From positions 119,649 through 183,648 of the forward strand of contig CAZKGL010000001.1 of the NCBI GenBank assembly GCA_964552565.1: a DNA stretch of 64,000 nt. Direction: 5' to 3'. Positions 622 to 17,420 of this stretch are shown here, one piece after another. The translations under genes were made by a program, and so were the position numbers. The notes under the pieces were generated by a model. It saw only the letters and a list, made by a program, of their open reading frames with translations, did not search any database and was not told where the DNA came from. This stretch comes from an uncultured Gammaproteobacteria bacterium. Its GTDB lineage: Bacteria; Patescibacteriota; Patescibacteriia; UBA9934. Every line of letters begins with the position of its first letter. The first letter of the stretch is position 1.

Positions 622-657
622 GGAGGTCGTTTTGTGCGGAAGGCGTTGCAACCCATT

Positions 658-1226: not shown

Positions 1227-1227
1227 A

Positions 1228-2205
1228 CTAGCTGCTGATTACCCGCTCCAACCAGTCTGTATTACAGTACGTTCCAAACTTTTCATTGAATTTCCCGAAG
1301 GCGCCGTCATCGAGGCTACTCACAAGCACGTCGCCCATGTAAAGCCTTAGGCGCGTGACGAGGTCACTTCCCGCAAAGAGTTCGGGGTAATACTTCTTGA
1401 ATAGTGATATCTCGTTACCTAGTCGGTAGTGCTCCCAAAGCGGTTCCGTCTTTTCTTCGACGTAATACTTGGGCGCGAGAAAGAAGTCGAGCATGTGCCA
1501 CAATTCGTAATCTTTCGGCGCTTGTCGGGCAAAGTCAAAATCAATGATGCCAGTGAGCGTATCGCCGTCGTGCAGAATATTCTCGAAATGGAAGTCATTA
1601 TGCACGAGCACCGGAGCGCTGGAATTCTTGAGGATGCCTTTATGTGCTTTATAGAAATCGCTATAAGCCACAAAGTTTTTTCGAGTTTCCGCGTCGAGCT
1701 TTGACTGGTCAATCCTGTCGATGTTTGTCAGGAAATCGAGCGCATTCTCCCAATTAGCAAATTCTCGCGGTCGCATAGACGAGTATGCGCCGAAAGAAAT
1801 ATTATGAAAGATTTTGAGTTGTTCGACGATTTGCGCTATGAGACTTTCGCGCTCACTTTCCGCAAGCAGATGCCAGTCTTCTGATAAATGTTTGCCCGGA
1901 AGTTTTGTCATGAGGAGATAGCTTGCTCCATCAATATTGCCACAATCGATTGCCCGGGGAACCTTCGCCCCGGCCGCACAAGCTTTATTCATGAGTTCAG
2001 GTTGATGAGCTGTAACGTCTAGGTTTTTTTCAATCTTCAAGACGTGATTTTTGCCAATTTCAAAGACCCGATTGATTTGTCCAGCGGTAAATTCCCTAAC
2101 GGGGGTATCAGCCGATAGCCCGTTTTTGGCAATGATTTTTTTTAATCGCATTTCTTCTGTCATATGATTGCACCCATTTTGGCACGCCCCATTCGAAAAT
2201 ACCAC
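1228..2205 (-). CDS. phosphotransferase enzyme family protein (APH/choline-kinase fold)
   Basis: Brenner and activation motifs are present (VHNDFHFENIL ... IIDFDFA), as in aminoglycoside phosphotransferase-like kinases. The start is uncertain: 2205 or the internal ATG at 2164. Confidence 0.7.
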   Translation of the reverse strand: MVFSNGACQNGCNHMTEEMRLKKIIAKNGLSADTPVREFTAGQINRVFEIGKNHVLKIEKNLDVTAHQPELMNKACAAGAKVPRAIDCGNIDGASYLLMTKLPGKHLSEDWHLLAESERESLIAQIVEQLKIFHNISFGAYSSMRPREFANWENALDFLTNIDRIDQSKLDAETRKNFVAYSDFYKAHKGILKNSSAPVLVHNDFHFENILHDGDTLTGIIDFDFARQAPKDYELWHMLDFFLAPKYYVEEKTEPLWEHYRLGNEISLFKKYYPELFAGSDLVTRLRLYMGDVLVSSLDDGAFGKFNEKFGTYCNTDWLERVISS

Positions 2206-2463
2206 CCTTACGGGTTACCGTATTTTTCTTGACAACAAACGACCTCCGGTAAGAGGGTCGTTTTGCATGGACACGTCCCCATGGGTTGCTCCGCACACCG
2301 TCCTTACCGCCATCGCCCCATGTAAACAAAAAGCTCCCGCAATCGAAATATCGATTGGGGAGTGCTTTTTGTGACAACGGGAGCTTGGTATTACTACCAC
2401 CGCATCCGATACATCTAGTTCATCAAACCGATAACACGGTGTCAAATGTGGATAACCTGCACG

Positions 2464-4746
2464 TTACTCTGCAGCCTCTTCTTTCTTCTTCCTACCCTTC
2501 CACGCCCGTTTCGGCGCAGTGCGCTTCTTTGCGAGCATCGCGATCGCTTGTTCGAGCGTCACGTCCTTCGGGTCGGTGTTTTTCGGAATGGTGACGTTGG
2601 TTTTTCCGTCCGTGACGTATGGGCCGTAGCGCCCGTCCTTCACAAGGATGTTCCCCTTGCTCTCCGGGTCCACACCGAGTTCAGCGATCGGCGTCATCAT
2701 CTTCTTTTTCTTTTCGACGCCCTCGGTGCAGATCTGGATAGCGCGCTCGAGCGTAATCGTTGCCGGGCTTTCGGTCGGCGGGAGCGAAATGTTTACTTCG
2801 CCGCACTTGAGGTACGGACCGAAGCGCCCGAGGTTGGCGATGATCTCGTTGCCGTCCGTGTGCGTGCCGACGATGCGGGGCAGCTCGAGGAGCTTCAACG
2901 CCTGCTCGATCGTGATGGTGTCCATGAGGAGGTCCTTCGTCAGCGACGCGCGCTTCGGCTTCGGTTCCTCGTCCGTCACCTCGCCGAGCTGGACATACGG
3001 TCCGAAGCGTCCGGTGCGCACAATGATCTCCATGCCGGACTTTGGATCCTTGCCGAGTTTGCGTTCCTTCATGACGTCGGCGCGGGTGAGGTCTGCGCCC
3101 TTTTCGACGATCTGTTCGTGGAACGGGCCGTAGAACGACGCCATGACCATCTGCCAGTTGTGCGAACCCTCGGCGATCTCGTCGAGCTTCTGTTCCATCT
3201 CGGCGGTGAAGCCGTAGTCGACGATGTTCGGGAAATGGTTCTTGAGGAGGTCGGTGACGATGATCGCGATGTCCGACGGGTACAGCTTCTTGTTGTCGTC
3301 GCGGAGCACATAGCCGCGGTCGATGATCGTCGTCAAGGTCGGCGCGTACGTCGACGGGCGGCCGATGCCGTACTCCTCGAGCGCCTTGATAAGCGTCGCA
3401 TCCGAGTAGCGCGCCGGCGGCTCGGTGAAATGCTGCTCCGGCTTCACCTCCTTCGCCGTACCGATGTCTTCGTCCTCCTTCAGCTCCGGAAGGATCTTGT
3501 CTTCCGCGGCGTGCCACACCTTCATGTAGCCCGGGAACACGACTGTGCTGCCGTTCGCGCGGAACGTGTGGCCGTTGCCCGCGAGGTCGACGCCGGTGCG
3601 GCGGATTTTTGCGGACGGCATCTGGCTCGCGACCGTGCGGCGCCAGATGAGGTCGTACAATTTCCATTCGCCCGTATCGAGCGATTGCTTGAGCGACGCC
3701 GGCACTACGGTAACGTCGGTCGGGCGGATGGCCTCGTGCGCTTCCTGCGCGCCCTTGCTCTTCGTCGCGTACTTCACTGCGCCCTTTGCGTACTCCGCGC
3801 CGAACTCGCTCTTGATATATTCCTGCGCTGCCGAGGTGAACTGTTCGGCGAGGTTCAAGGAGTCGGTACGCATGTACGTGATGCGGCCGGTTTCGTAGAG
3901 TTTTTGCGCCAGCGTCATCGTCTGTTTCGCGCTCATGCCGAGACGGTTGTACGCCTCCTGCTGCAGGGTCGACGTGGTGAGCGGCACCGGCGGCTTGCGC
4001 GAGGCGTCCTTCAACTCGATCTTTTGCACGACAAAATGTGCGTCCTTCACCACGTCGACGATCGCCTTGGCGTCCGCCTCCGTCTTGATGTCGAGTTTGT
4101 CGAGTTTCTTGTCGCCGATCGCGGTCAGCTTCGCCTCGATGGCGGCGCCGGCCTTCTCGAAGACGGCTTCGATGGTCCAGTATTCTTCGCTTGTGAACGC
4201 ATTGCGCTCCTGTTCGCGCTCGACGACGAGGCGCACGGCGACCGACTGCACGCGGCCTGCGGAGAGCCCGCGCTGGACCTTTTTCCACAGGAGCGGGGAG
4301 AGTTCATAACCGACGAGGCGGTCCAAAATGCGGCGCGTCTGCTGCGCGTCGACGAGGCGCATGTCGATATGGCGCGGCTTTTCGAGCGCGTGGTCGATAG
4401 CGTGCTTTGTGATTTCGTGGAATGTGATGCGCTTCGCCGTGGCCGGGTCGAGCTTTAGCACTTCGGCGATGTGCCAGGCAATCGCCTCTCCTTCGCGGTC
4501 TTCGTCAGTTGCGAGGTAGACCTCGTCGGCGTGTTTGGCGGCGTCCTTCAGCGCGGCGACCTTCTGCTTCTTTTCCGTCGGGACCTCATAGGTCGGCGCA
4601 AAGCCATGCTCCACGTCGACTCCGGTCGACTTCTTCGGGAGGTCGCGGATGTGCCCGAATGACGAGAGGATTTTGTAGCCGTTGCCCAGGAACTTTCCAA
4701 TGGTCTTGGCTTTCGTCGGCGACTCAACAATCAAAAGTTTGCTCAT
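2464..4746 (-). CDS. topA: DNA topoisomerase I
   Basis: N-terminus MSKLLIVESPTKAKTIGKFLG (TOPRIM domain). Full-length 760 aa with repeated C-terminal GRFGPY modules. Confidence 0.95.
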   Translation of the reverse strand: MSKLLIVESPTKAKTIGKFLGNGYKILSSFGHIRDLPKKSTGVDVEHGFAPTYEVPTEKKQKVAALKDAAKHADEVYLATDEDREGEAIAWHIAEVLKLDPATAKRITFHEITKHAIDHALEKPRHIDMRLVDAQQTRRILDRLVGYELSPLLWKKVQRGLSAGRVQSVAVRLVVEREQERNAFTSEEYWTIEAVFEKAGAAIEAKLTAIGDKKLDKLDIKTEADAKAIVDVVKDAHFVVQKIELKDASRKPPVPLTTSTLQQEAYNRLGMSAKQTMTLAQKLYETGRITYMRTDSLNLAEQFTSAAQEYIKSEFGAEYAKGAVKYATKSKGAQEAHEAIRPTDVTVVPASLKQSLDTGEWKLYDLIWRRTVASQMPSAKIRRTGVDLAGNGHTFRANGSTVVFPGYMKVWHAAEDKILPELKEDEDIGTAKEVKPEQHFTEPPARYSDATLIKALEEYGIGRPSTYAPTLTTIIDRGYVLRDDNKKLYPSDIAIIVTDLLKNHFPNIVDYGFTAEMEQKLDEIAEGSHNWQMVMASFYGPFHEQIVEKGADLTRADVMKERKLGKDPKSGMEIIVRTGRFGPYVQLGEVTDEEPKPKRASLTKDLLMDTITIEQALKLLELPRIVGTHTDGNEIIANLGRFGPYLKCGEVNISLPPTESPATITLERAIQICTEGVEKKKKMMTPIAELGVDPESKGNILVKDGRYGPYVTDGKTNVTIPKNTDPKDVTLEQAIAMLAKKRTAPKRAWKGRKKKEEAAE

Positions 4747-6017
4747 ACTCGATGCGAACGATAGCCGTGCGACGAGCGCGCGTCAAGAATTTCTTTCTCG
4801 CTTACCCAATGCGTGCGCACTTCGCCGGCCAAGTAGAGCGATCCCGTCACGAGGATGGTGTCACCGCTTTTGGCAGATTGGAGCGCGTGGCGGAGCGCGT
4901 CGTGCGAGAACAAGAACATCTCGCCGCGCGTTGACTTCGGGACGAGGCGGAGCAGCGCCGCGGGGTCCTTTGGCGCGCCGCGCCCGGTGCTATAGCGCGT
5001 CGTGTGGATGACATCGGCAATCGCGGCAAGTTCGGCGACCATCGCCTTTGCATCCTTACCGTCTTTGCAGCCGAAGACGACGTGGACCTTTCCTTTTGCC
5101 GCGCGTCCGAGCATCCGGCACGTCGTGCGCATCTTTGCGACGTTGTGCGCCCCGTCGACGATGACGAGCGGCTTCTTTTGCATCACTTCACACCGGCAGG
5201 GGAGGCCTGTGCTGCGGGCGATCGCGCGTTCGATCGCCGCCATCGGGACGCCCACTGCGCGCGCGGCGGCCGTGGCAACAAGCGCGTTGTGCAGCCGGTG
5301 GTCGTCGTTCGGCGCATCAATCCACTGCACGTCCGCGCCGTGCGTCTTCGCTTCGCGTGCGATGATCGCGCGGATGCCCGGGCGCGCCTCGCCACTCACC
5401 ACGCTGCACCGTCCGGTGATGATGCCCGCCTTCTCGCGCGTGATCGCTTCGAGGCTGTTGCCGAGGAGCTCGGTGTGGTCGAGGTCGATGGTCGTGATGA
5501 CCGCGACGTCTTTTTTGGGGATGACATTCGTCGAATCCCACCGTCCGCCAAGGCCGACCTCCAGCACGCACCACTCCACGCCTTCGAGCACGAACGCGAC
5601 GAGCGCGACGCAGGTCGTCAATTCGAAATAGGTGAGCGGCTGCTTGCCTTCGCGGACGTGCGCTTCGTATGCGGCGAGCACGATGTTCGTCGCCTGCACG
5701 AAACGTTTCGGGTCGAGGAGCTTTTGGCCGACGCGGAAGCGCTCAAGGAGCGTCGTGGTATGCGGCGACATGTAGCTCCCGACCTTCCGGCCGTCCGCAA
5801 GGAGCATCTCGTGGATGAGATGCGTCACGCTGCCTTTGCCGCTCGTGCCCGTGACATGGATGAAGCGCATGCGGCGCTCCGGGTGCTCGAGGCGGGCCAA
5901 CAGCTCGCGGAGGCGCGCCAAAGAATCGCGCAGGCTCTGCGCCGACGAGTGTTTCCAGGGCAGTTCAAGGTTGCCGAGCGATGAAAGGCGTGCGACCGCG
6001 GCGTGGTAGGCGTCCAT
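4743..6017 (-). CDS. folC: Mur ligase family protein, folylpolyglutamate synthase/dihydrofolate synthase-like
   Basis: Motif HVTGTSGKGS, about 424 aa with Mur-ligase middle and C-terminal domains. Overlaps topA by 4 nt. Confidence 0.75.
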   Translation of the reverse strand: MDAYHAAVARLSSLGNLELPWKHSSAQSLRDSLARLRELLARLEHPERRMRFIHVTGTSGKGSVTHLIHEMLLADGRKVGSYMSPHTTTLLERFRVGQKLLDPKRFVQATNIVLAAYEAHVREGKQPLTYFELTTCVALVAFVLEGVEWCVLEVGLGGRWDSTNVIPKKDVAVITTIDLDHTELLGNSLEAITREKAGIITGRCSVVSGEARPGIRAIIAREAKTHGADVQWIDAPNDDHRLHNALVATAAARAVGVPMAAIERAIARSTGLPCRCEVMQKKPLVIVDGAHNVAKMRTTCRMLGRAAKGKVHVVFGCKDGKDAKAMVAELAAIADVIHTTRYSTGRGAPKDPAALLRLVPKSTRGEMFLFSHDALRHALQSAKSGDTILVTGSLYLAGEVRTHWVSEKEILDARSSHGYRSHRV

Positions 6018-6023
6018 AAACGG

Positions 6024-7115
6024 CTACCTTATATAGCGGGAACCGCCGATATGTCTAGCCCAGCCTTCGATTTCCATGACGGTCAGCGTGCTGCCGACAA
6101 GCGGGGTGGGGAGGCCGACGGCGCGGCAAATATCGTCGATATGCAGGGGTTCCATGGTAAGGACGGCGTAGATCGCGGCCGCCTCGGGCGACGCCGGCGA
6201 ACCGGTACGCATAGGCGGGGTCACCGCACCCCGCCGGTCATCGGTCACGCCAAGTACGGACAGGATGTCGTCGGCGCAGGTGGCGACGTGGGCGCCATCG
6301 CGGCAGAGGCGGTTGGTGCCGACCGACGTTGGGGAGGTGATAGGGCCGGGGACGGCGAAGAGCTCGCGGTTTTCGTTGAGTGCGGCCCGGGCGGTGATAA
6401 GCGACCCGGACTGTTCCGCGGCTTCCACAACGAGGGTGGCTTTGCTGAGGCCTGCGATGACGCGGTTGCGGATGGGGAAGTGGTGGGTGAGTGGCGGCAT
6501 CGTTGGCGGGAACTCGCTCATGACGCAGCCGCCTGCGTCGACGATGGCGCGGGCGAGCGCATCTTTGCGCGGCGCATCTTGCCCGTCGAGCCCGCTGGCG
6601 AGGACCGCGATCGTCACCCCGCCGGCGTCGAGCGTCGCCCGGTGCGCCGCTTCATCGATGCCCCATGCAAGGCCGCTCACGATGACGATGCCGCGCGACG
6701 CGAGGTCTCGGCTCATATCATGGGCGACGCGTAAGCCGTAGTCCGTCGCTTTGCGCGACCCGACGACGCCGAGCGTCATGGCGTCGTGCGGCGGCAGCGT
6801 CCCGCGATAAAACAGGACATACGGCGGATCGTGGATCGCCTTGAGGAGCGTGGGGTACCGATCGTCGTCCACACCGACGACGTCGATGCCGCGCGTGGCG
6901 ACATCGTCGGCCAACGCCTGCGGGTTGTGCGCGTTGCGCCACGCGACAAACTTTGCCGCCATCGTCGGCGATAGGCCGCCACGCATGAGTTCGGATTCGG
7001 ACACGCCCCAAACCGCCTCGTCGTCGCCAAGCGTCGCGAGGAGGTTCCGGTGGTGCACGGGGCCGATGTCGAGGTCGCCAAAATGGGCGAGCGCAACGCG
7101 AAAAGGAGAGGTCAT
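6024..7115 (-). CDS. dprA: DNA processing protein DprA (Smf)
   Basis: Rossmann-like core (GVVGSRKAT...IVSGLAWGID...AVLASGLD). Classic dprA-topA linkage. Confidence 0.9.
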   Translation of the reverse strand: MTSPFRVALAHFGDLDIGPVHHRNLLATLGDDEAVWGVSESELMRGGLSPTMAAKFVAWRNAHNPQALADDVATRGIDVVGVDDDRYPTLLKAIHDPPYVLFYRGTLPPHDAMTLGVVGSRKATDYGLRVAHDMSRDLASRGIVIVSGLAWGIDEAAHRATLDAGGVTIAVLASGLDGQDAPRKDALARAIVDAGGCVMSEFPPTMPPLTHHFPIRNRVIAGLSKATLVVEAAEQSGSLITARAALNENRELFAVPGPITSPTSVGTNRLCRDGAHVATCADDILSVLGVTDDRRGAVTPPMRTGSPASPEAAAIYAVLTMEPLHIDDICRAVGLPTPLVGSTLTVMEIEGWARHIGGSRYIR

Positions 7116-7211
7116 TGCCTTATTCTACCATCTCGGCCATTTGCTCATCCGTAGGCGTCAACTGCCGAGTGTTTGCTGTGCTTGCTATAGGTGTATCCGG
7201 GGGAAAGCCAC

Positions 7212-7964
7212 ATGGAGAAGTGGATTCGTATCGGTCTTTTGCTCGGCACGCTTGCCTGGTCGCTCCTCGCGGGCTCCGGCTGCCAGTATGTATTTTCCGC
7301 GGAGTCGTCGAAGACGAGCTGGACCATGCCGGGGCCCGCGCCCGAGCTGCCGCCGGGCGTGCCGCCCGCGGTGCCCGACCTGTCGCGCTACCCGAGCGCC
7401 CAGTCGCGCATCAAGCTCGCCACGCTCGACCATCCGATCGCCGAGGTGAAGCAGATGTACGTCGCGCTCGCGGCGAAGGCGCAGGGGACGCTCCTCGTCG
7501 TCCTCTCGGAGAACCTGAACGACCACGCCGCGTTCGCGGGCCTTCTCGTGAAGCCGCTCAAGGGCAAGGGCCACGAGGCTGCGCTCGTGTTCGACGCGCA
7601 GCGGATGGAGAACGCGGCGACGATCGACGACATCCTCGACGTCTGGGCGACGACCGAGCGCGAGATCGTGCGCTGGAAGCAGCTCATGTTCGACGGGCGT
7701 CCGGCGGCGACCTTCGTCGAGCGGTACGCCGTCGCGACCGACGAGGAGTGCGCCTGGACGTGGAAGGGCGAGCTCGAGGCGAACGCGGCCTACTGCCGCC
7801 GCGCGAACGGATGGGGGCTGCGCCGCAACCCCGAGCTCTGCCCGTGGGTGGGCGACGACGCCGACTTCCGCCACGCGCTGTACCTCGCCATGACCAAGGA
7901 CATGACGCACGCCGAGTGCGTCGCGACCTGGGCGCGGATGGCGGGACACCCCGCGTACCAGTGA
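7212..7964 (+). CDS. hypothetical lipoprotein
   Basis: Signal peptide with lipobox LLAGSGC. Good SD (GGGGGAAAG) 6 nt upstream of the ATG at 7212. Confidence 0.5.
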   Translation: MEKWIRIGLLLGTLAWSLLAGSGCQYVFSAESSKTSWTMPGPAPELPPGVPPAVPDLSRYPSAQSRIKLATLDHPIAEVKQMYVALAAKAQGTLLVVLSENLNDHAAFAGLLVKPLKGKGHEAALVFDAQRMENAATIDDILDVWATTEREIVRWKQLMFDGRPAATFVERYAVATDEECAWTWKGELEANAAYCRRANGWGLRRNPELCPWVGDDADFRHALYLAMTKDMTHAECVATWARMAGHPAYQ

Positions 7965-7988
7965 ACGTCAGAGGCCGGGTGTGAGAGA

Positions 7989-8022
7989 CTCCGAAGCTCA
8001 GCTTCGAAGCTGAGCTTCGGAG
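7989..8022. terminator. 34-bp perfect palindrome between convergent genes (bidirectional terminator-like)
   Basis: CTCCGAAGCTCAGCTTCGAAGCTGAGCTTCGGAG. The core 26 bp recurs at 56174..56199. Confidence 0.5.
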
Positions 8023-8089
8023 GGAGAAATAGCTCGCGATCTGAACCGAGAGGCCGGCATCCCACGCGGGGACGCCGGCCTCAACTCGT

Positions 8090-8662
8090 TTATTGGATCG
8101 TGATCGTCTCTTCTTTCACCCCGTCCGCGAGTGCGCGGTCGATGATATCCTCGACGATCTCCGCTTTTCGCTCCATGAGCGCATGTTCGTCTTTCGAAAA
8201 CTTCTGGAGGACGTATTCCTCGAGCGGCATCTTTTCCGGCGGGGCGCCGATGCCGATGCCGATGCCGATGCGGATGCGGGCGAAGCCTTCGCCGACGTGC
8301 TCGATGATCGATTTGATGCCGTTATGCCCGCCAGCCGAACCGCCGATGCGCACACGTACTTGGTTCGGCTCGATCGCCGCCTCGTCGTACGCGACCCAGA
8401 CGTCTTTCGCTGCGACCTTGTACATTCCGCACAAGGACGCGACCGATTCGCCCGAGAGGTTCATGAAGGTCTGCGGCTTGGCGAGGATGACTTTCTTGCC
8501 GTTCACATTGGCTTCCGCGACCTCCGCCCGCGCCGCCGCATTCGCTTTCCAGCCGAGCTCCCAGCTGTCGGCAAGGTGGTCGACCGCAACAAAGCCTGCG
8601 TTGTGGCGGGTGCGGTCGTATTTCGTGCCGGGGTTGCCAAGGCCGACGATAAGGATGGCCAT
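8090..8662 (-). CDS. pth: peptidyl-tRNA hydrolase
   Basis: MAILIVGLGNPGTKYDRTRHNAGF N-terminus. Contains an in-frame (GCCGAT)4 repeat encoding GIGIGIG. Confidence 0.9.
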   Translation of the reverse strand: MAILIVGLGNPGTKYDRTRHNAGFVAVDHLADSWELGWKANAAARAEVAEANVNGKKVILAKPQTFMNLSGESVASLCGMYKVAAKDVWVAYDEAAIEPNQVRVRIGGSAGGHNGIKSIIEHVGEGFARIRIGIGIGIGAPPEKMPLEEYVLQKFSKDEHALMERKAEIVEDIIDRALADGVKEETITIQ

Positions 8663-8663
8663 A

Positions 8664-10061
8664 TTACTTCTTCTTTTTCTGCGGCGTGCGGGCTTCGCCG
8701 TGCTTGCGCTGGACGGCGCTCACGTTGATCTTGATCGGCGTGCCTTCGAAGTCGAACTGCATGCGCATCTGGCGCTCGAGGAATTTCACGTAACTTTCGG
8801 CAAGCGCGTCTTCGCGCGGCGCGTTGATGGTGAGGCGGAAGCGCGGCGGGTTCGTCGCGTACTGCTCGAAGCCGATGATGTTCGGGTGCCACGTGCCCTT
8901 GTGCTTGCTCGGCTTGTGGCGGGCGATGGCGCGGCTGATGAACTGCTTCGCCTCCGCGTCGTCGAGTTCGGTGAAGCGGCTCGCAAACACGCGGTCGATG
9001 ACTTCCAGCGTATCTTGCACGCGCTTCCCGGTGAGGGCGGAGATGAACACGATCGGCGCAAACCCGATCTGCGGCAAGTGCGCGCGGATGTATTCGTCGT
9101 ACTTGTTAATGGTGTTCGTGTCCTTGTCCGGGATGAGGTCCCACTTGTTCGCGATGAGGACGACGCTCGCGCCGTGCTCGGCGATGAGCCCCGCGAGGTG
9201 CTTGTCCTGCGCGGTAATCTTCTGGTTGATGTCGATGACGAACAGGACGACGTTCACGCGCTTCAGCATTTCGATGGTCTGCTGGACGCCGTACTTCTCG
9301 AGCATCGTGCCGCTCTCGTTGCGCCGCGCCTGGCGGCGGACGCCGGCGGTGTCGAAAAACAGGTAATCGCGGCCGCCGATGTGCGCGGCGACTTCGTTGG
9401 GTTGGCGCGTCGTGTGCGCAATGCTTGACGCAAGGAAGCGCTTTTCGCCAAGGAGTGCGTTGAGCAGCGTCGACTTCCCGGCGTTCGGCTCGCCGAACAC
9501 CGCGATACGCATCGGCAGTACGGTCGACACGTCCGCAGGCTCTTTGCCAATGCGGCTGAGCTCGGCATAGACCTCGTCGAGAAGGTCGCCGGCGCCGGTG
9601 CCGCGCGCCGCGGAGACGGGGAAGGGCTTCGCAATCGGCCAGCTGCGCCACGTGACGCCCTCGGCGCTCATGCGGAGCGCAGGCGTGTCCGCCTTGTTGC
9701 CGACGACGATGACCGGCTTCTTTGCTTCAAACAGTTTTTTTGCGATGGCGTAGTCGTCCGTGGTGGGGCCGACCGTCACGTCGACAAGGAAGAGGACGAC
9801 GTCGGCGTCCGAAATGGCGAGGTCGGTCTGTTCGATGACGCCGCGTTCGATTTCGAGCGACGGGTCGACGTCGAGGCCGCCGGTGTCGATAAGCCGGATG
9901 ACTTTGCCGCGCCAGATGCAGTCCGCCTCAAACCGGTCGCGCGTGGTCCCCGCGACGTCCGAAACCAAAGACCGCTGCTCTTCGATGAGCTTATTAAAAA
10001 GCGTCGACTTCCCGACATTGGTGCGGCCGACGAGGGCGACTTTGGGGATTTCCTGCTGCAT
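8664..10061 (-). CDS. der: ribosome-associated GTPase Der (EngA)
   Basis: Two tandem G domains (GRTNVGKST and GEPNAGKST) plus a KH-like C-terminus. Confidence 0.95.
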   Translation of the reverse strand: MQQEIPKVALVGRTNVGKSTLFNKLIEEQRSLVSDVAGTTRDRFEADCIWRGKVIRLIDTGGLDVDPSLEIERGVIEQTDLAISDADVVLFLVDVTVGPTTDDYAIAKKLFEAKKPVIVVGNKADTPALRMSAEGVTWRSWPIAKPFPVSAARGTGAGDLLDEVYAELSRIGKEPADVSTVLPMRIAVFGEPNAGKSTLLNALLGEKRFLASSIAHTTRQPNEVAAHIGGRDYLFFDTAGVRRQARRNESGTMLEKYGVQQTIEMLKRVNVVLFVIDINQKITAQDKHLAGLIAEHGASVVLIANKWDLIPDKDTNTINKYDEYIRAHLPQIGFAPIVFISALTGKRVQDTLEVIDRVFASRFTELDDAEAKQFISRAIARHKPSKHKGTWHPNIIGFEQYATNPPRFRLTINAPREDALAESYVKFLERQMRMQFDFEGTPIKINVSAVQRKHGEARTPQKKKK

Positions 10062-10069
10062 AGCGCCCG

Positions 10070-11575
10070 TTAGCGCAAAACAAGTGAGGCAGCATCTTCG
10101 CCCACGATGATTAAAAAGTCAATGTCTTCAGCGGAGGTGACGAGGTCGGCACCCGGCGTATCGTCTTCCGACAACGCGGTCGGCACGACGTCGTCCGCAT
10201 ACACCCAGCCTTCGTGCGACATGATGACGTCTGCACCGAGAAACTCCTTGAGGCTCGCGAGTTCGGCCGACTTACGGCCGTCCGTCAGGTCATAGATGGT
10301 CGTCCGCGCATACGTCCGGTCGGTAGCGTTGCCGATCGTCACGACTTCGAAGCTCGACCCGTCCAGGCGCTGGGCGGTCTGGTAGGCGAGTCCGCTGATT
10401 GCGGTGCCGTTTTGCACCTCCACCTTCACGGCCGGGACATCGGGGAGCGTTGCCGGCACGATCTCCGCGCTCGCGGTGCCGTCCGAGACGAACAGGGTTT
10501 CGGCGATTTCATGGACGTCCGACCAGTCGTCCGCCTTCGGCAGGATGATGTACGCCTCGCACCCGGTGCAGGCGTAGAGCGGACTCTCCGGGCTCGTGTC
10601 GAGCACCTGCATGGTAATGGCGTTCGTGTCGACGTTCGGCGCGTACTTCGCGAGCTTCACCATCTCCCAGAACGTGAGGTTGGTATCGATGTGGTCGTTC
10701 AGCGTATCGAGGAGGCGCGTGAGTTTGGCCGGGTTGAGGAGGACGCCGGCCGAGAGCGCTTTGTCCTTTACCGCAAGCAGGATCTTTTGCTGGCGTGCGC
10801 CGCGGGCGAAGTCCGTGCCCTCGCCGTTGTTGCCGTGGCGCGACCGGGCGAATTGGAGCGCGGTCTCGCCGTCCATGTGCGTCCATCCGCGTTCAAAGGA
10901 AACGGTGATGTACGTCGGCGATCCTTCGTACTCCGGATATTGTGCATCGGTAAAACTGTTCTCGACGTACACGTCGATGCCGCCAAGTTCGTCGATGAGT
11001 TTTTCAAACCCGTTGAAGTCGACGCGGACCGCGTAGTGGATCGGCTGGCCCGTCACGGTTTCGACGACGTCGCTTGCAAGCTTGATGCCTTCGCCATCGC
11101 CTTTCTGCTCGCCGTATGCGTTCGCGTGGTTGATCTTCCCGTTCCCGTAGCCGGGGATGCTGACGTACAAGTCGCGCGGGATTGAGAGCATGCCGAGTTC
11201 GTGCGTGGACGGCTTGAAGCTGCCGAAGATCATGGTGTCCGCAAGCTGCGGCCCGTCGTGGCCCGCGCCGCCGATGCCCATGAGGAGGAAGTTGATGCGG
11301 TCGTCCGCTTCGCCTGCGACCGGTTTGTCGCCGCTGCCGACGAGCCGCGAGAAGCCGCTCGTGAACGTCGAGAAAAACGAGAGGTTGCCCACGTCGGTCT
11401 CATCGCCGTGGGTGATCTGGGCGATGCGGTACGAAAAGAACGTGCCGACGACCGCGGTGACGGCTAAAAACATGGCGATATAGCGCCCTGAACGCGAAAC
11501 CTTGGCGCGCACCTCGCGCTCCGTGGGAATCTCGTACTTTTTTTGGAGAAAATCAACCGTGTGCTGGTCGGACAT
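10070..11575 (-). CDS. LytR-CpsA-Psr (LCP) family protein
   Basis: N-terminal TM followed by an LCP core (INFLLMGIGG...LADTMIF...LSIPRDLYVSIPGYG). Confidence 0.85.
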   Translation of the reverse strand: MSDQHTVDFLQKKYEIPTEREVRAKVSRSGRYIAMFLAVTAVVGTFFSYRIAQITHGDETDVGNLSFFSTFTSGFSRLVGSGDKPVAGEADDRINFLLMGIGGAGHDGPQLADTMIFGSFKPSTHELGMLSIPRDLYVSIPGYGNGKINHANAYGEQKGDGEGIKLASDVVETVTGQPIHYAVRVDFNGFEKLIDELGGIDVYVENSFTDAQYPEYEGSPTYITVSFERGWTHMDGETALQFARSRHGNNGEGTDFARGARQQKILLAVKDKALSAGVLLNPAKLTRLLDTLNDHIDTNLTFWEMVKLAKYAPNVDTNAITMQVLDTSPESPLYACTGCEAYIILPKADDWSDVHEIAETLFVSDGTASAEIVPATLPDVPAVKVEVQNGTAISGLAYQTAQRLDGSSFEVVTIGNATDRTYARTTIYDLTDGRKSAELASLKEFLGADVIMSHEGWVYADDVVPTALSEDDTPGADLVTSAEDIDFLIIVGEDAASLVLR

Positions 11576-11680
11576 AACGACGTACCCGTTCCTTCGGGAG
11601 TATACGCGAAAGGGGACGAGAGCGGAAGGGGAACTCGACGCTTGATTTTTCGCGAGCGATGGTATAGTTTATTGCCGCAT

Positions 11681-11757
11681 GGATGTTTAGCTCAGCTGGT
11701 TAGAGCGCTGTCCTCACACGACAGAGGTCGGTGGTTCGAGCCCACCAACATCCACCA
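11681..11757 (+). tRNA. tRNA-Val (anticodon CAC)
   Basis: Cloverleaf GGATGTT/AACATCC acceptor stem, anticodon loop CTCACAC, T-loop TTCGAGC, encoded CCA. Confidence 0.9.
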
Positions 11758-11796
11758 AAAATCCCTTCGGCTCCGGCCGAGGGGATTTTTGCTTTT
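11758..11796. terminator. intrinsic terminator after tRNA-Val (bidirectional)
   Basis: Hairpin ATCCCTTCGGC/GCCGAGGGGAT followed by TTTTTGCTTTT. Confidence 0.7.
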
Positions 11797-12886
11797 ATGG
11801 CAGTCGCTCGACCACGCCGTTTTCCGCGTCCACACGGACGAGGTCGCCGTTGTGGAGTGCGGCGAGGGCGCCGCGGACGCCGACGATGCAGGGCTTCTTG
11901 AGTTCCCGGCTCACGATGGCGGCGTGCGAGAGGAGACCGCCGCGTTCCGTGACGATCGCCGAGGCGCGCTGCATGAGGGGGAGCGCGTCCGGCGTCGTCA
12001 TGTCCATGACGAGGACGTCGCCGCCCGGGATCGTCGCCTCCGCAAGCGTATCGGCGGTGACGATGCGGACGCGGCCCGTGGCGCTGCCCGCGCAGCTGGT
12101 TTGTCCGTGTAGTGCGGCGTCTGCCGTGGCAACGTGCGGACGCGTGCCGCGCAGCATGCCGCCCAAGATGCGGTTGTAATCGATGAACCAGATGCCAAAC
12201 TCTTGCGAGCAGACCGTCTCGAAGTAGCCACAGAGGTGGTCGTGCGCGAACGTCGCGTTGCACTCCGTGCGCAGCGCGTCGCGCATCGCCGCGTCGGGGA
12301 CGTGGAGCAGCGCGACAAGTTCCTTGAGGTGCTCGCGCGCGCCGTCGTGCTTCTCGCTCATGCGCCACGTCGTGAAGTCGTACTGAAACGTGATGGGGCG
12401 CGCGGACGCCTCGAAGCCTTGCGTCAGCCGGTCGTGCGAGTCGGCGATGATGTCGCCAAACACGCCGTCCTCGTTGACGACGATGATCGTCGACCAACGG
12501 TGCTCGCTTGGCCGCGGCATGAGCTCGACGCGGTACGCGGCGTTGTCGATCGTCTGTGCGGCGAACCATGCAAGCGCGTCGGCCGTTGGCACGTTCCAAA
12601 TACGGAGCTTCGGCATCGCCGGGTCGTGCGGCACGAGACGGAGCGCGCACAGCCTGTCGCCGTACGATGCGACGGTCTCCATGAACCGCGGCGCGCGGTC
12701 CGCGACCTCTTGTGCGGAGAAACGCGACACGAGGTCGGTGGGGAGCCCAATGCGCGCGTTGAGGTGCTGCAGACGGTCGCGCTTCGCATTGTCTTCTTCG
12801 CGGAAGGCGGTTGTTTCCGCGTATCCCATGCGCTCGAGCCACTCGGTGAGCGAGACCTGCGCGTGTTTCTTCTCCGTGTCGGACAT
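11795..12886 (-). CDS. PEP-utilising enzyme mobile (phosphohistidine swivel) domain protein with an uncharacterised N-terminal domain
   Basis: C-terminus carries the swivel-domain signature GGLLSHAAIVSRELKKPCIVGV. The first ~270 aa show no ATP-grasp or PPDK motifs. Confidence 0.6.
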   Translation of the reverse strand: MSDTEKKHAQVSLTEWLERMGYAETTAFREEDNAKRDRLQHLNARIGLPTDLVSRFSAQEVADRAPRFMETVASYGDRLCALRLVPHDPAMPKLRIWNVPTADALAWFAAQTIDNAAYRVELMPRPSEHRWSTIIVVNEDGVFGDIIADSHDRLTQGFEASARPITFQYDFTTWRMSEKHDGAREHLKELVALLHVPDAAMRDALRTECNATFAHDHLCGYFETVCSQEFGIWFIDYNRILGGMLRGTRPHVATADAALHGQTSCAGSATGRVRIVTADTLAEATIPGGDVLVMDMTTPDALPLMQRASAIVTERGGLLSHAAIVSRELKKPCIVGVRGALAALHNGDLVRVDAENGVVERLP

Positions 12887-12912
12887 AGCCTCCTCATGCT
12901 AGCATAGGCGGC

Positions 12913-12950
12913 TTGATTTTTCCGTTTTTTATGGTATACTCGGTACAATT
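12913..12950 (+). promoter_or_regulatory. sigma70-like promoter upstream of lepB
   Basis: TTGATT, a 16-17 nt spacer, then TATACT. A TACAAT is also nearby. Confidence 0.45.
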
Positions 12951-12960
12951 TGCAGCATTT

Positions 12961-13608
12961 ATGAACGAAACTTCCCCGAACGACCCGAAGGGCGGCACGC
13001 GAACGCCGCTCCTTGTTTCCTGGCTTGGCCCGACGGCCGGCGCCGTCGCGATGTTCGTGGTGGAGATCGCGAAGATCGTCATCATCGCGGTCGCGATCAT
13101 CGTCGTCGTGCGTTACTTCCTCATCCAGCCGTTCGTCGTGAAAGGCGCGTCGATGGAGCCGAGTTTCTACGACAAGGAGTACCTCATCGTCGACGAAGTG
13201 ACGTACCGCTTCCGCGACCCGGTGCGCGGCGAAGTCGTCGTGTTCCATCCGCCGGAGCGTTCCGCGGAGGGGTTTTACGAAGAGAGCAGCCAGTACTACA
13301 TCAAGCGCGTCATCGGGCTCCCCGGGGAGACGGTGGAGATCCGCGACGGCCGCATCACCATCTATAACGAGGACGAGCCGAACGGCGTCTTGCTCGACGA
13401 GACCTACACGAGCGAGTACACCGACGGCCACATGCGTGTCGTCGTCCCCGCGGGGCAATACTTCCTCATGGGCGACAACCGCGACGCGAGCCTGGACTCC
13501 CGCACCTTCGGTTCCGTGCCGTTTGAAAACCTCATCGGCAGGGTCTGGGTGCGCGGGTATCCGCTCGACCGCCTCGGCGGGTTCTCGGTCCCTGAATATA
13601 ATTTCTAG
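12961..13608 (+). CDS. lepB: signal peptidase I
   Basis: Catalytic boxes GASMEP (Ser), YIKRVIGLPGE (Lys) and GDNRDAS. The start is taken at the ATG of MNETSP. The track ORF begins at an upstream TTG. Confidence 0.85.
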   Translation: MNETSPNDPKGGTRTPLLVSWLGPTAGAVAMFVVEIAKIVIIAVAIIVVVRYFLIQPFVVKGASMEPSFYDKEYLIVDEVTYRFRDPVRGEVVVFHPPERSAEGFYEESSQYYIKRVIGLPGETVEIRDGRITIYNEDEPNGVLLDETYTSEYTDGHMRVVVPAGQYFLMGDNRDASLDSRTFGSVPFENLIGRVWVRGYPLDRLGGFSVPEYNF

Positions 13609-16302: not shown

Positions 16303-16329
16303 CAGGGGATAACCCCTGTTTTGTGTTTT
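16303..16329 (+). terminator. intrinsic terminator after rpsU
   Basis: CAGGGGATAACCCCTG followed by TTTTGTGTTTT. Confidence 0.75.
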
Positions 16330-16383
16330 GGTACAATGGAAGTACGCGCAAACCCTAATTCAACTCCCCGCAAGCATGCTTTT

Positions 16384-16704
16384 ATGTTTGATAACGAGAC
16401 CGTGGCACAGCTGCGAGGGATTATTCGTGAGGAAGTCCAAGGGGGGGTTGACGGCATCGATGGGCGGTTTGCCGCTATCGATGCCCGATTCGACGCTATT
16501 GATGCCCGATTTGAGCGTGTCGATGCCGAGTTTAAGAGTATTGATGACCGGTTTGAACGGCTTGAGCAGAAAATTGAACGCGAGGTCGATGCATTGCGGA
16601 CGGACATGCATGCGGAATTCGCAGCGCAGCACCGCCGCATCATCAGCGATGTCGGCGAGATGATCGAGCAGAACGTCTTGCCTCACGTATTCCGCCACGC
16701 ATAA
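16384..16704 (+). CDS. hypothetical small coiled-coil protein with tandem IDxRF repeats
   Basis: IDGRFAAIDARFDAIDARFERVDAEFKSIDDRFERLEQ repeats. The start is taken at the ATG of MFDNET. An extended -10 (TGgTACAAT) at 16330-16337 precedes it. Confidence 0.5.
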   Translation: MFDNETVAQLRGIIREEVQGGVDGIDGRFAAIDARFDAIDARFERVDAEFKSIDDRFERLEQKIEREVDALRTDMHAEFAAQHRRIISDVGEMIEQNVLPHVFRHA

Positions 16705-16772: not shown

Positions 16773-17420
16773 ATGGAGAAGCCCCTCCTCCTCTTCGACT
16801 TCGACGGCGTGTTGGTGGATTCGTTTGATATTAACCAGCAGGTCTTCAACGAGTTTTACCCGCAGATGACGCAGGACGAGATCCTTTCCTTGTATGACGG
16901 GAATGGCATCACGCGGCTGCGCGAATTCCAGGAGCGCAACGGATACACCGACATCCTCGAGCGGCAAACGGCGTTTTCGGTCCGCTACAGCGAACTCGCG
17001 GCGACGAAGTCGCTGTCCGACTGGGCGGCGGCGATGTTGCAGCAGCTCGCGGAACGGTTCACGCTGACGATCGTCACGACGAGCAGGGAGGAGGGGGTTG
17101 AGGCGTGTTTGATGCGTTCCGGTGCACGTGGGCATGTTGCCCGCATTTATGGCCGCAACGCGCATGACAGCAAGGTCGAAAAGATCCGTATGGCATTTGC
17201 AGACCATGGCGGCGTGCCGGAGAGGAGCCTGTTCGTGACGGATACGGTCGGCGACGTCCATGAGGCGAGGGAGGCGGGCGTCCACGCGCTTGCCGTGGCG
17301 TGGGGCTTCCATCCGCGCGAACGGTTGGCAAAGGGGAATCCGTGGGCTATTGTGGACTCACCCGCACATCTCACTACGATGATCGATACCTATTTCTATG
17401 ACGCTGTACGAACAGATTAA
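16773..17420 (+). CDS. HAD-superfamily hydrolase (subfamily IA, phosphatase-like)
   Basis: Motif I LLLFDFDGVLVDS at the N-terminus. Later HAD motifs are present. Confidence 0.8.
   Translation: MEKPLLLFDFDGVLVDSFDINQQVFNEFYPQMTQDEILSLYDGNGITRLREFQERNGYTDILERQTAFSVRYSELAATKSLSDWAAAMLQQLAERFTLTIVTTSREEGVEACLMRSGARGHVARIYGRNAHDSKVEKIRMAFADHGGVPERSLFVTDTVGDVHEAREAGVHALAVAWGFHPRERLAKGNPWAIVDSPAHLTTMIDTYFYDAVRTD

What the first reader, a model, noticed from the sequence alone, without database searches (positions are those of the whole stretch)
11795..12886. Stand-alone PEP-utilising swivel domain fused to an uncharacterised 270-aa N-terminal domain
The C-terminal ~90 aa have the canonical phospho-histidine motif GGLLSHAAIVSRELKKPCIVGV of PEP-utilising enzymes (PPDK, PEP synthase, enzyme I and rifampicin phosphotransferase). 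The N-terminal 270 aa show none of the ATP-grasp or PEP-binding TIM-barrel signatures. This architecture suggests a phosphotransferase that shuttles phosphate to an unknown substrate bound by the novel domain, or a partner-dependent split enzyme.
Basis: partly seen in the sequence, partly recalled or inferred. Interest (0 to 1): 0.5.

Follow-up and report, generated by a model that had tools for sequence, protein, structure and literature searches.

The report
Orphaned dikinase subunit with cryptic ATP-grasp
This intact gene from an ultra-small Uhrbacteria (CPR) bacterium joins a phosphate-carrying 'swivel' histidine domain to a hidden ATP-grasp domain; it belongs to an unstudied enzyme family of ultra-small bacteria and archaea that normally works with a separate ATP-binding partner, which this 64-kb stretch lacks.

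Summary
A 363-aa ORF lies at 11795-12886 on the minus strand and ends in a PEP-utilizers swivel domain (PF00391, E 2.5e-25; His321).

The protein belongs to a conserved, uncharacterised family of about 365 aa found in Patescibacteria and DPANN archaea. In 17 of 25 informative loci a canonical stand-alone PPDK_N ATP-grasp gene is adjacent, upstream in the same array or in the upstream protein. At least 13 full-length clusters carry PPDK_N fused upstream of this module, 8 of them as PPDK_N-Ndom-swivel.

The most likely role is the carrier/second-site subunit of a split, RPH/HpeHI-like dikinase. The two closest relatives have lepB | PPDK_N -> this gene -> HAD ... LCP. The window has lepB | this gene | tRNA-Val | LCP, so the partner and the HAD gene are missing there. 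The substrate is unknown; weak evidence suggests it is nucleotide-like. This is a new variant of a known kind.

The parts
11795..12886 (-). Complete CDS, 363 aa: divergent ATP-grasp domain, linker and phospho-histidine swivel domain
   Evidence: ORF listing. It is identical to NCBI HYS28_03045, and over 1,200 homologues were found; the 120 best listed are mostly 355-375 aa. AlphaFold model has pLDDT 91.7 and pTM 0.88.
12152..12859 (-). N-domain (aa ~10-245): cryptic ATP-grasp fold with no Pfam or NCBIfam match
12596..12649 (-). Strand-loop-strand 'CALRLVP...PKLRIW' (aa 80-97) with invariant C80, A81, R83, P86, K93 and R95; candidate phosphate-binding element
   Evidence: Invariant columns are listed. 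The only local hhalign match to canonical PPDK_N pairs this segment with 'VAVRSSA...WAG', and it is not significant. The functional role is inferred.
12170..12226 (-). Last beta-hairpin 'YFET...WFIDYNR' (aa 221-239): E223, D236, N238 and R239, a candidate Mg/phosphate site of E...[D/E]-x-N type
   Evidence: E223 and D236 are invariant; N238 and R239 are at least 90% conserved. The family profile aligns 'wfiDynr' to 'lyivqsrp' at the end of the ATP-grasp of PEP synthase 8a8e. The role in metal binding is inferred from general knowledge of ATP-grasp enzymes.
12107..12151 (-). Variable inter-domain linker (aa 246-260)
   Evidence: pLDDT dips to 73-87 here, and these alignment columns are gapped and variable.
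11801..12106 (-). PEP-utilizers mobile (swivel) domain, aa 261-362
11924..11926 (-). Codon of His321, the predicted phospho-carrier histidine within T313-x-x-G-G-x-x-x-H321
   Evidence: Sequence and alignment. The motif T/S-x-x-G-G-x-x-x-H is described for HpeH and RPH swivel domains in PMC12167813.
12889..12895 (-). Shine-Dalgarno-like GAGGAGG just upstream of the ATG
   Evidence: Sequence read.
11756..11791 (.). 16-bp G+C-rich hairpin followed by T-runs on both strands: bidirectional terminator shared with the convergent tRNA-Val (11681-11757 +)
   Evidence: Terminator scan and tRNA calls.

Best explanation
The gene encodes the phosphohistidine-carrier/second-site subunit of a split 'swivel' dikinase family restricted to Patescibacteria (CPR) and DPANN archaea. 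The C-terminal swivel domain carries His321. The N-terminal 245 aa are a highly diverged ATP-grasp fold that provides one of the two reaction sites the histidine visits. In most relatives the other site is a canonical PPDK_N ATP-grasp. That domain is encoded by the gene immediately upstream, often with a 4-nt overlap, or is fused in front as PPDK_N-Ndom-swivel, which is the domain order of rifampicin phosphotransferase.

The inferred mechanism has two steps. The PPDK_N partner uses ATP to (pyro)phosphorylate His321. The swivel domain then docks on the protein's own ATP-grasp-like cleft, lined by E223, D236, N238, R83, K93, R95, K35, R36, R38 and H151. There the phosphoryl group is passed to, or taken from, a bound ligand that is probably nucleotide-like or polyphosphate-bearing.

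In this genome the gene sits in the ancestral syntenic position between lepB and the LCP gene. The partner and the downstream HAD phosphatase gene are absent. The protein therefore either uses a distant or divergent ATP-grasp donor or performs only its own half-reaction.

Shown: the domain composition, the fold, the conservation, the gene linkage and fusions, and the loss of the partner from this locus. Inferred: the direction of transfer, the identity of the ligand and the activity of the orphan copy.
For: Swivel domain and His motif.

Docking: TM-scores are about 0.5 to the PPDK conformers 1dik and 1kbl, but 0.25-0.29 to 2r82 and maize PPDK. From my recollection of these structures, 1dik/1kbl have the His domain on the nucleotide domain and 2r82/maize have it swung away. 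If so, the model docks the swivel on its own ATP-grasp. This is an inference.

Linkage: PPDK_N lies in cis in 17 of 25 informative loci, as an adjacent gene, as the upstream PPDK_N-X-swivel gene or at the head of the same array. A stand-alone PPDK_N has no histidine carrier of its own. In the simple two-gene loci this protein supplies the only swivel found within the fetched flanks (up to 6-10 kb each side).

Fusions: PPDK_N-Ndom-swivel occurs in P0134, P0135, P0142, P0151, P0141, P0183, P0191 and P0152. PPDK_N-(X-swivel)n-Ndom-swivel occurs in P0126, P0127, P0131, P0132 and P0136; P0156 (1 PPDK_N, 6 swivels) also holds the N-domain.

Precedent: the two-component dikinases HpeHI, CreHI and PpsAB have a separate ATP-grasp subunit (PMC12167813).

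Synteny and loss: L089 and L090 read lepB | PPDK_N | this gene | HAD ... LCP. The lepB (84% identity) and LCP (71%) genes map to the window flanks, and PPDK_N and HAD give no hit in 64 kb.

Purifying selection: only 3 of 88 highly conserved columns differ in the window protein, and His321 is kept.
Against: No PPDK_N lies in the 64-kb window. None of the 120 best homologues of the nearest relative's partner comes from this organism. The partner-dependent mechanism therefore cannot be shown for this copy.

Eight of 25 loci lack a cis partner yet keep the His, which fits an autonomous enzyme equally well.

The N-domain retains the acidic and basic residues expected of a catalytically competent ATP-grasp, so it could be the ATP site itself.

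Foldseek TM-scores for the N-domain are modest (0.40-0.45), and no residue-level structural alignment was available to confirm the active-site equivalences.

The acceptor ligand is unknown. HAD and NUDIX neighbours (7 and 6 of 26 loci) are common genes in these genomes, and the ITPase, CYTH and pyruvate-kinase fusions are single clusters.
Confidence: 0.55

Rival explanations
1. Autonomous two-domain histidine autokinase of the VadK type. The N-domain is itself the ATP-binding ATP-grasp and phosphorylates His321. The phospho-enzyme then regulates or phosphorylates a target in trans, which could be a protein or a barrel domain such as pyruvate kinase. The neighbouring PPDK_N in other genomes serves other swivel proteins.
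For: The architecture of an ATP-grasp plus a swivel with no third domain matches Mtb VadK, which autophosphorylates His422 with ATP and Mg (PMC13400623). The fold is an ATP-grasp with a conserved E223/D236/N238 motif. The family profile aligns colinearly with PEP synthase from the last ATP-grasp strand through the swivel. Eight of 25 loci, including this 64-kb window, have no cis PPDK_N yet keep the His and the invariant residues. The model appears to dock the swivel on the protein's own N-domain (TM-score pattern; this is an inference).
Against: A fusion of a canonical PPDK_N directly in front of Ndom-swivel, seen in at least 8 clusters, would be redundant if the N-domain were the ATP site. 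In the simple two-gene loci the stand-alone PPDK_N has no other swivel-bearing protein to act on within the fetched flanks. In the polyproteins Ndom-swivel occupies the same slot as the non-ATP-grasp X-swivel modules behind a single PPDK_N. The N-domain has no detectable sequence similarity to PF01326, unlike VadK, which the paper describes as a truncated PPDK.
Confidence: 0.27
2. Non-functional or decaying remnant in this genome. After loss of the PPDK_N partner and the HAD gene, the remaining subunit has no activity and persists only by chance.
For: The partner and HAD genes are missing from the syntenic locus. The sister orthologue P0003 has lost the catalytic His (GGSLSPAAI). This subclade alters three otherwise near-invariant positions: R97, G98 and H125. 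The protein is 60% identical to its L089 orthologue, whereas the flanking LCP and lepB are 71% and 84% identical.
Against: The reading frame is intact, with an SD and a terminator. All 46 invariant residues and His321 are retained, and only 3 of 88 highly conserved columns differ. The same three changes occur in P0004, which still has its partner and its His. Partner-less copies that keep the His are scattered across the family tree, so the gene survives repeatedly without a cis partner. The identical protein was recovered on three separately assembled contigs (one NCBI MAG contig, two Logan run assemblies).
Confidence: 0.08
3. One reading: the N-terminal region is a genuinely novel substrate-binding domain that is not an ATP-grasp, and it holds an unknown small molecule that is phosphorylated by the swivel histidine.
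For: No Pfam, NCBIfam or PDB sequence match covers aa 1-250. hhalign against canonical PPDK_N is not significant. In the fused proteins the domain sits in the position of the RPH rifampicin-binding domain.
Against: The fold is an ATP-grasp by three independent structure searches. The domain is unrelated to the helical acceptor domains of the other array members (hhalign probability at most 1%). The part of this reading that treats the domain as an acceptor site survives and is absorbed into the best explanation.
Confidence: 0.05

Closest known systems
Two-component small-molecule dikinases HpeHI, CreHI and PpsAB (phenylphosphate synthase), and their single-chain homologue rifampicin phosphotransferase RPH
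   Different: In RPH and HpeH the second-site domain is the rifampicin-binding-type domain. Here it is itself an ATP-grasp fold, unrelated at profile level to the other acceptor domains in the same arrays. The substrates of the known enzymes are phenolics or rifamycins, and here the substrate is unknown. In this window the ATP-grasp subunit is absent.
VadK (Rv1127c) of Mycobacterium tuberculosis, a truncated PPDK
   Same: Both have a two-domain architecture of an ATP-grasp plus a phospho-histidine swivel domain, with no PEP/pyruvate TIM barrel.
   Different: [quoted passage not shown] The window protein's ATP-grasp is not recognisable by PF01326, and its family is genetically coupled to an additional canonical ATP-grasp. 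The two also differ in taxonomic range: mycobacteria against CPR/DPANN.
PEP synthase and pyruvate phosphate dikinase (PPDK)
   Same: The swivel domain is closest in sequence to that of PEP synthase (8a8e, E 1.1e-18 for the single sequence and 4.5e-34 for the profile). The junction from the last ATP-grasp strand through the linker to the swivel is colinear. Foldseek aligns PPDK across both domains.
   Different: There is no PEP/pyruvate-binding TIM barrel and no PF01326 match. The regulatory Thr two residues before the His (GGxTSH) is replaced by Leu (GGLLSH). The protein is less than half the length of these enzymes.
ATP-grasp carboxylate-amine ligases (D-Ala-D-Ala ligase, LysX/RimK, PurT/PurD, RiPP macrocyclases)
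   Same: They are the best Foldseek matches for the N-domain alone (E 4e-6 to 2e-4, TM 0.40-0.45). The domain also has an E...D-x-N arrangement like the ligase Mg site.
   Different: Sequence identity is 8-18%. The N-domain has no pre-ATP-grasp N-terminal domain. It is fused to a phospho-histidine carrier, which ligases do not use.

Membership tests
PEP-utilising enzyme mobile (swivel) domain, PF00391 | Profile score above Pfam's gathering threshold | tested here: met
   88.3 bits against a cutoff of 23.1, E 2.5e-25, aa 287-357 covering profile positions 2-72 of 72.
PEP-utilising enzyme mobile (swivel) domain, PF00391 | Phospho-carrier histidine in the T/S-x-x-G-G-x-x-x-H loop | tested here: met
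   The sequence reads T313-E-R-G316-G317-L-L-S-H321. The motif definition comes from PMC12167813.
PEP-utilising enzyme mobile (swivel) domain, PF00391 | His is actually phosphorylated | not testable with these tools
   This needs biochemistry: 32P-ATP labelling or intact-mass MS, with and without the H321A change.
PEP synthase / PPDK (three-domain dikinases) | N-terminal PPDK_N (PF01326) nucleotide-binding domain | tested here: not met
   There is no PF01326 hit even at E up to 1. hhalign of the N-domain profile against 36 PPDK_N sequences gives a probability of 0.2-1%.
PEP synthase / PPDK (three-domain dikinases) | C-terminal PEP/pyruvate-binding TIM barrel (PF02896) | tested here: not met
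   The protein ends one residue after the swivel domain (aa 363), and no such hit was found.
PEP synthase / PPDK (three-domain dikinases) | Regulatory Thr two residues before the catalytic His (GGxTSH) | tested here: not met
   The window has GGLLSH, and the family consensus is GGILSH.
RPH / HpeHI-type small-molecule dikinases (single-chain or two-component) | A PPDK_N ATP-grasp encoded on the same chain or by an adjacent gene | tested here: not met
   This is not met in the window: there is no PPDK_N in 64 kb and no close orthologue among the top 120 hits. It is met in the family: 17 of 25 loci, and fusions in at least 13 full-length clusters.
RPH / HpeHI-type small-molecule dikinases (single-chain or two-component) | Acceptor domain homologous to the rifampicin-binding / HpeH substrate domain | tested here: not met
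   The N-domain folds as an ATP-grasp. It is unrelated to the other acceptor-domain classes of the arrays (hhalign probability at most 1%).
RPH / HpeHI-type small-molecule dikinases (single-chain or two-component) | C-terminal swivel domain after the second-site domain | tested here: met
ATP-grasp superfamily | ATP-grasp fold (central and C-terminal alpha+beta subdomains) | tested here: met
ATP-grasp superfamily | Acidic Mg-binding residues on the last two strands (E/D ... E/D-x-N) | tested here: inconclusive
   E223 and D236 are invariant and N238 is at least 90% conserved, on strands 220-227 and 231-238. Equivalence to the Mg ligands rests on the profile alignment to 8a8e and on general knowledge; no residue-level structural superposition was available.
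ATP-grasp superfamily | Binds ATP or another nucleotide | not testable with these tools
   This needs binding assays or a co-fold with ligand.
VadK-like two-domain histidine autokinases | Architecture of an ATP-grasp plus a swivel only | tested here: met
   VadK is described in PMC13400623.
VadK-like two-domain histidine autokinases | PPDK-derived, sequence-recognisable nucleotide-binding domain | tested here: not met
   The window protein has no PF01326 match. The NCBIfam PRK05878 model matches it only over the swivel region.
VadK-like two-domain histidine autokinases | ATP/Mg-dependent autophosphorylation without a partner | not testable with these tools
   This needs biochemistry.

The most novel reading that the evidence does not exclude
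The family is a 'double ATP-grasp' phosphotransfer machine. One swivel histidine shuttles a phosphoryl or pyrophosphoryl group between a canonical PPDK_N site, which uses ATP, and a second, highly diverged ATP-grasp site that binds a different nucleotide or polyphosphate ligand. In effect this would be an ATP:nucleotide (pyro)phosphotransferase used for nucleotide salvage or pool sanitation by genome-reduced CPR and DPANN symbionts. It would be one plug-in module of a previously undescribed modular system, in which a single ATP-grasp charges up to eight or more different [acceptor domain + swivel] modules encoded as tandem arrays or giant polyproteins.
Probability: 0.2. Interest if true: 0.8.

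Novelty: new variant of a known kind. Interest (0 to 1): 0.6.

Why it matters
Swivel-histidine dikinases are known as central-metabolic enzymes (PPDK, PEP synthase), as antibiotic-inactivating enzymes (RPH) and as aromatic-catabolic enzymes (HpeHI, PpsAB). This gene shows a further variant in which the second reaction site is itself a cryptic ATP-grasp. The variant is confined to the ultra-small, host-dependent Patescibacteria and DPANN archaea, and it is conserved at 45-60% identity across the two domains of life.

Following the gene also exposed large tandem arrays and polyproteins in these tiny genomes. Their pattern is one ATP-grasp followed by many [variable domain + swivel] modules, and I found no description of them in the searchable literature. 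If the family phosphorylates nucleotides or detoxifies small molecules, it bears directly on how organisms without de novo nucleotide synthesis survive on their hosts.

For annotation, 'hypothetical protein' or 'PEP-utilizing enzyme' can be replaced by 'ATP-grasp/phosphohistidine-swivel dikinase subunit, PPDK_N-associated family'.

Tried and rejected
- Sequence-family searches of aa 1-250 against Pfam, NCBIfam and PDB sequences gave nothing credible. The weak RRM_MARF1 and coagulation factor XII hits are chance matches.
- Profile-profile comparison of the N-domain with canonical PPDK_N was not significant (probability 0.2-1%). Homology to PF01326 therefore cannot be claimed from sequence.
- Profile-profile comparison with the N-domains of the other array members (clusters c0 and c2-c9) showed no relation. 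I rejected the idea that all array modules share one acceptor fold.
- I searched for a partner in the window with tblastn, using two and then four PPDK_N proteins, and with an HMM. Nothing was found.
- I searched for a partner elsewhere in the organism through the protein database. No HYS28-tagged protein and no protein from the 838,942-bp contig appeared among the 120 best hits. This is suggestive only, because just the top 120 of 4,317 hits are visible.
- I looked for conserved neighbours other than dikinase components. Only local synteny among Saccharibacteria turned up. HAD and NUDIX recur but are weak evidence.
- An anti-phage defence role was tested against PADLOC, which gave no hits for this protein, its partner or two other array members.
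- Literature searches (five queries) found HpeHI, VadK, RPH and a CPR resistome screen that mentions rph-like genes. None described this family or the arrays.
- The AFDB fold search could not be run because the library was unavailable.
- The pseudogene or fragment reading was rejected on the basis of the intact frame, the expression signals and the residue conservation.
Full report
**1. The observation**

The window holds a single ORF at 11795-12886 on the minus strand, with an ATG start and 363 aa. It has a GAGGAGG Shine-Dalgarno at 12889-12895. Directly after the stop is a 16-bp hairpin terminator (11756-11791) that it shares with a convergent tRNA-Val at 11681-11757. The gene is divergent from lepB and is monocistronic.

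The quoted motif GGLLSHAAIVSRELKKPCIVGV lies at aa 316-337. Pfam PF00391 (PEP-utilizers mobile domain) matches aa 287-357 with E 2.5e-25. NCBIfam and PDB sequence searches match only aa ~250-362, to the swivel regions of PEP synthase, RPH, PPDK, pyruvate kinase and enzyme I. Nothing matches aa 1-250. The protein is identical to NCBI 'hypothetical protein HYS28_03045 [Candidatus Uhrbacteria bacterium]' and lies on contig JACOUU010000036.1 of GCA_016177675.1.

**2. A real, conserved family**

The word-index search returned over 1,200 homologues. The best 120 are mostly 355-375 aa (a few are longer fusions or fragments) and 44-60% identical over the whole length. They come from Patescibacteria (Uhrbacteria, Saccharimonadales, Magasanikbacteria) and DPANN archaea (Woesearchaeota, Nanoarchaeia, Diapherotrites).

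In a 48-sequence alignment the N-terminal region is as conserved as the swivel. It has 28 invariant residues, including E15, W16, E31, D32, K35, R36, R38, C80, R83, K93, R95, Q111, H151, Q156, E223 and D236. An exhaustive HMMER search with aa 1-252 against 1.84 billion representatives finds 187 clusters at E <= 1e-3. The N-domain is therefore a distinct family of modest size.

**3. What the N-domain is**

AlphaFold2 gives confident models: pLDDT 91.7 and pTM 0.88 for the full protein, and pLDDT 91.6 for aa 1-250 alone.

- Foldseek of the full model aligns PPDK (1kbl, 1dik) over both domains at E 1e-11. The next hits are D-Ala-D-Ala ligase, PurD, succinyl-CoA synthetase beta, ATP-citrate lyase and RiPP ATP-grasp ligases.
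- With the N-domain-only model, all 50 listed Foldseek hits are ATP-grasp enzymes, out of 102 hits with E <= 1e-3.

The N-domain is therefore an ATP-grasp fold. It is very diverged. TM-scores are only 0.40-0.45. A profile-profile comparison with 36 canonical PPDK_N sequences is not significant, and the only local pairing is 'CALRLIP..PKLRMRG' with 'VAVRSSA..WAG'.

The family profile aligns colinearly with PEP synthase 8a8e from the last ATP-grasp strand through the linker and swivel, with 'wfiDynr' against 'lyivqsrp'. From general knowledge of ATP-grasp enzymes, E223 together with D236-x-N238 on the last two strands looks like the Mg-binding E...E-x-N arrangement. The invariant basic residues look like a polyphosphate-binding set. 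These residue assignments are inference.

The full model has TM ~0.5 to 1dik and 1kbl, but only 0.25-0.29 to 2r82 and maize PPDK. As I recall these structures, 1dik/1kbl hold the His domain on the nucleotide domain, and 2r82/maize hold it swung away. That pattern suggests the model docks the swivel on its own ATP-grasp. This too is inference, because no coordinates were available.

**4. Genomic context in relatives**

In homologue loci the gene immediately upstream on the same strand is often a compact stand-alone PPDK_N (PF01326) protein of about 245-330 aa. It carries all the canonical motifs and ends at '...LYILQSRPITTL'. I built HMMs for the N-domain, the swivel and this partner, and scanned 85 fetched loci.

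A PPDK_N lies in cis in 17 of 25 informative loci that carry the family:
- as the adjacent gene in L001, L003, L008, L011, L012, L014, L017, L020, L089 and L090;
- as an upstream PPDK_N-X-swivel gene or protein in L006, L009, L013 and L042;
- at the head of a tandem array in L021, L022 and L023.

No other neighbour is conserved beyond local synteny. HAD-IA and MutT-like NUDIX genes recur within about 4 kb, in 7 and 6 of 26 loci respectively. They are operonic in L089, L090 and L016. Both families are common in these genomes, so this is weak evidence.

**5. Fusions**

Among the N-domain clusters, at least eight are PPDK_N-Ndom-swivel proteins of 590-700 aa: P0134, P0135, P0142, P0151, P0141, P0183, P0191 and P0152. 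Others are PPDK_N-(X-swivel)n-Ndom-swivel: P0126, P0127, P0131, P0132 and P0136. P0156 has one PPDK_N, six swivels and an internal N-domain.

PPDK_N-Ndom-swivel is the domain order of rifampicin phosphotransferase, with this N-domain in the place of the rifampicin-binding domain. Single clusters join Ndom-swivel to other domains:
- a pyruvate kinase barrel (P0212);
- an ITP/XTPase plus a methyltransferase (P0125);
- a CYTH triphosphate-tunnel domain (P0110).

There is also an Ndom-Ndom-swivel protein, P0029.

A stand-alone PPDK_N has no histidine carrier. In the two-gene loci the only swivel found within the fetched flanks is on this protein. The simplest reading is that the histidine shuttles between the PPDK_N site and the protein's own ATP-grasp-like site. 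The published two-component dikinases HpeHI, CreHI and PpsAB provide the precedent for a separate ATP-grasp subunit (PMC12167813).

**6. The situation in this window**

The two closest relatives are P0003 (60% identity, L089) and P0004 (54%, L090). Their locus reads lepB (divergent) | PPDK_N (252 aa) -> Ndom-swivel (4-nt overlap) -> HAD-IA -> (NUDIX) ... LCP.

L089's lepB and LCP map to the window's flanking genes at 84% and 71% identity. Its PPDK_N and HAD genes, and the NUDIX gene of L090, have no counterpart anywhere in the 64 kb. In the window, lepB and this gene are 26-74 bp apart, and a tRNA-Val occupies the downstream gap. The partner and the HAD gene have therefore been lost from this locus or moved away from it.

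A database search with L089's PPDK_N returned 4,317 homologues. None of the 120 best (identity down to about 43%) comes from this organism or from its 838,942-bp contig. This is suggestive but not conclusive.

The window protein shows no decay. Only 3 of 88 highly conserved columns differ (R97W, G98N, H125R). This is a subclade signature shared with P0004, which keeps its partner. His321 and every invariant residue are present. Partner-less copies are scattered over the family tree and all keep the His. By contrast, the sister orthologue P0003 has Pro in place of the catalytic His.

**7. Mechanism and alternatives**

The best-supported reading (about 0.55) is that this is the carrier/second-site subunit of a split RPH/HpeHI-like dikinase. 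A PPDK_N partner charges His321 from ATP. The swivel then delivers the phosphoryl group to a ligand held in the protein's own ATP-grasp-like cleft, or takes it from that ligand. The fold, the basic pocket and the ITPase, CYTH, NUDIX and HAD associations weakly suggest that the ligand is nucleotide-like or polyphosphate-bearing. Here the partner is missing from the locus.

The main rival (about 0.27) is a self-sufficient VadK-like autokinase (PMC13400623). It is favoured by the partner-less copies and disfavoured by the PPDK_N fusions. Decay in this genome (about 0.08) is disfavoured by the conservation.

**8. Novelty**

Pfam, NCBIfam and PADLOC do not recognise the N-domain. Source annotations read 'hypothetical protein', 'PEP-utilizing enzyme' or 'phosphohistidine swiveling domain-containing protein'. 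Five literature queries found no description of the family or of the arrays. The only mention is of rph-like hits in a CPR resistome screen (PMC8651080). I classify it as a new variant of a known kind, the swivel-histidine dikinases, with a previously unrecognised ATP-grasp-derived second-site domain.

**9. Beyond the finding**

The fetched CPR and DPANN loci contain tandem arrays of 5-10 genes of the form [variable 240- or 380-aa domain + swivel], with one PPDK_N. Some are giant polyproteins: the L029 ORF at 1916-13219 has one PPDK_N and eight swivels. The variable domains fall into at least six classes. These classes are mutually related (hhalign probability 95-99%) but unrelated to the N-domain studied here, and Pfam sees only PF00391 in them. 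This modular organisation of one donor and many acceptors deserves a study of its own.

Noticed in passing
L029:1916-13219 (+); also L031:5459-11449, L066:5535-11621, L068:3636-10709, arrays in L021, L022, L033-L037, L050-L056, L070; protein P0156: CPR and DPANN genomes carry tandem arrays of 5-10 genes of the form [variable 240- or 380-aa domain + swivel], usually with a single PPDK_N ATP-grasp. Some are giant polyproteins: L029 has 1 PPDK_N and 8 swivels in a ~3,770-aa ORF, and P0156 has 1 PPDK_N and 6 swivels in 2,648 aa. The variable domains form at least 6 classes that are related to each other but not to the window's N-domain, and Pfam recognises only the swivel. No description was found in the searchable literature.
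   Followed up: partly
L089:1680-2759 (protein P0003): The window protein's closest NCBI-derived orthologue (60% identity) has Pro in place of the catalytic histidine (GGSLSPAAI), although it still sits in a PPDK_N -> Ndom-swivel -> HAD operon. It may be an inactivated copy or a sequencing error.
   Followed up: partly
Proteins P0212, P0125, P0110, P0029; locus L024:8805-11044: There are unusual fusions of the Ndom-swivel module: to a pyruvate kinase barrel (P0212), to an ITP/XTPase (PF01931) plus a methyltransferase (P0125), and to a C-terminal CYTH domain (P0110). There is also a tandem N-domain duplication (P0029), and two tandem gene copies in L024. Each is a single cluster or locus. Together they hint at a nucleotide or triphosphate theme.
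   Followed up: partly
window 1-2300, ORF 1228-2205 (-): The first 2 kb of the window have 50% G+C against about 63% elsewhere. They encode an APH-family phosphotransferase (PF01636, E 3.9e-24), so this may be a horizontally acquired kinase or resistance-type gene.
   Followed up: partly
window 43566-43959 (-): Rfam finds a tmRNA here (77 bits, full-length model), but ARAGORN did not report it on the same window.
   Followed up: no
window 16321-16704 (+): This 127-aa ORF has a short repeated D-x-R-F motif (IDGRFAAIDARFDAIDARFERVDAEFKSIDDRFERLEQKIE) and is probably a coiled-coil protein of unknown function. It overlaps several alternative ORFs on both strands.
   Followed up: no
L003:7089-7697 (-): A gene with a Cap15_CD_rec domain (PF18153) lies directly downstream of, and convergent to, the PPDK_N + Ndom-swivel pair. 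L001 has an unannotated 205-aa gene in the same position.
   Followed up: no
window 37283-38281 (+): This is an ordinary pyruvate kinase barrel homologue (25% identity to the PK part of fusion protein P0212, E 1e-25), about 25 kb from the finding. The window has no swivel domain other than the one in the finding.
   Followed up: partly
window 16773-17420 (+): This is a HAD-IA hydrolase, with sub-threshold similarity to phosphoglycolate phosphatase and PpaX models (all far below their curated cutoffs), about 4 kb from the finding. It gave no tblastn hit (E <= 1e-3) to the HAD genes that follow the family in L089 and L090.
   Followed up: partly
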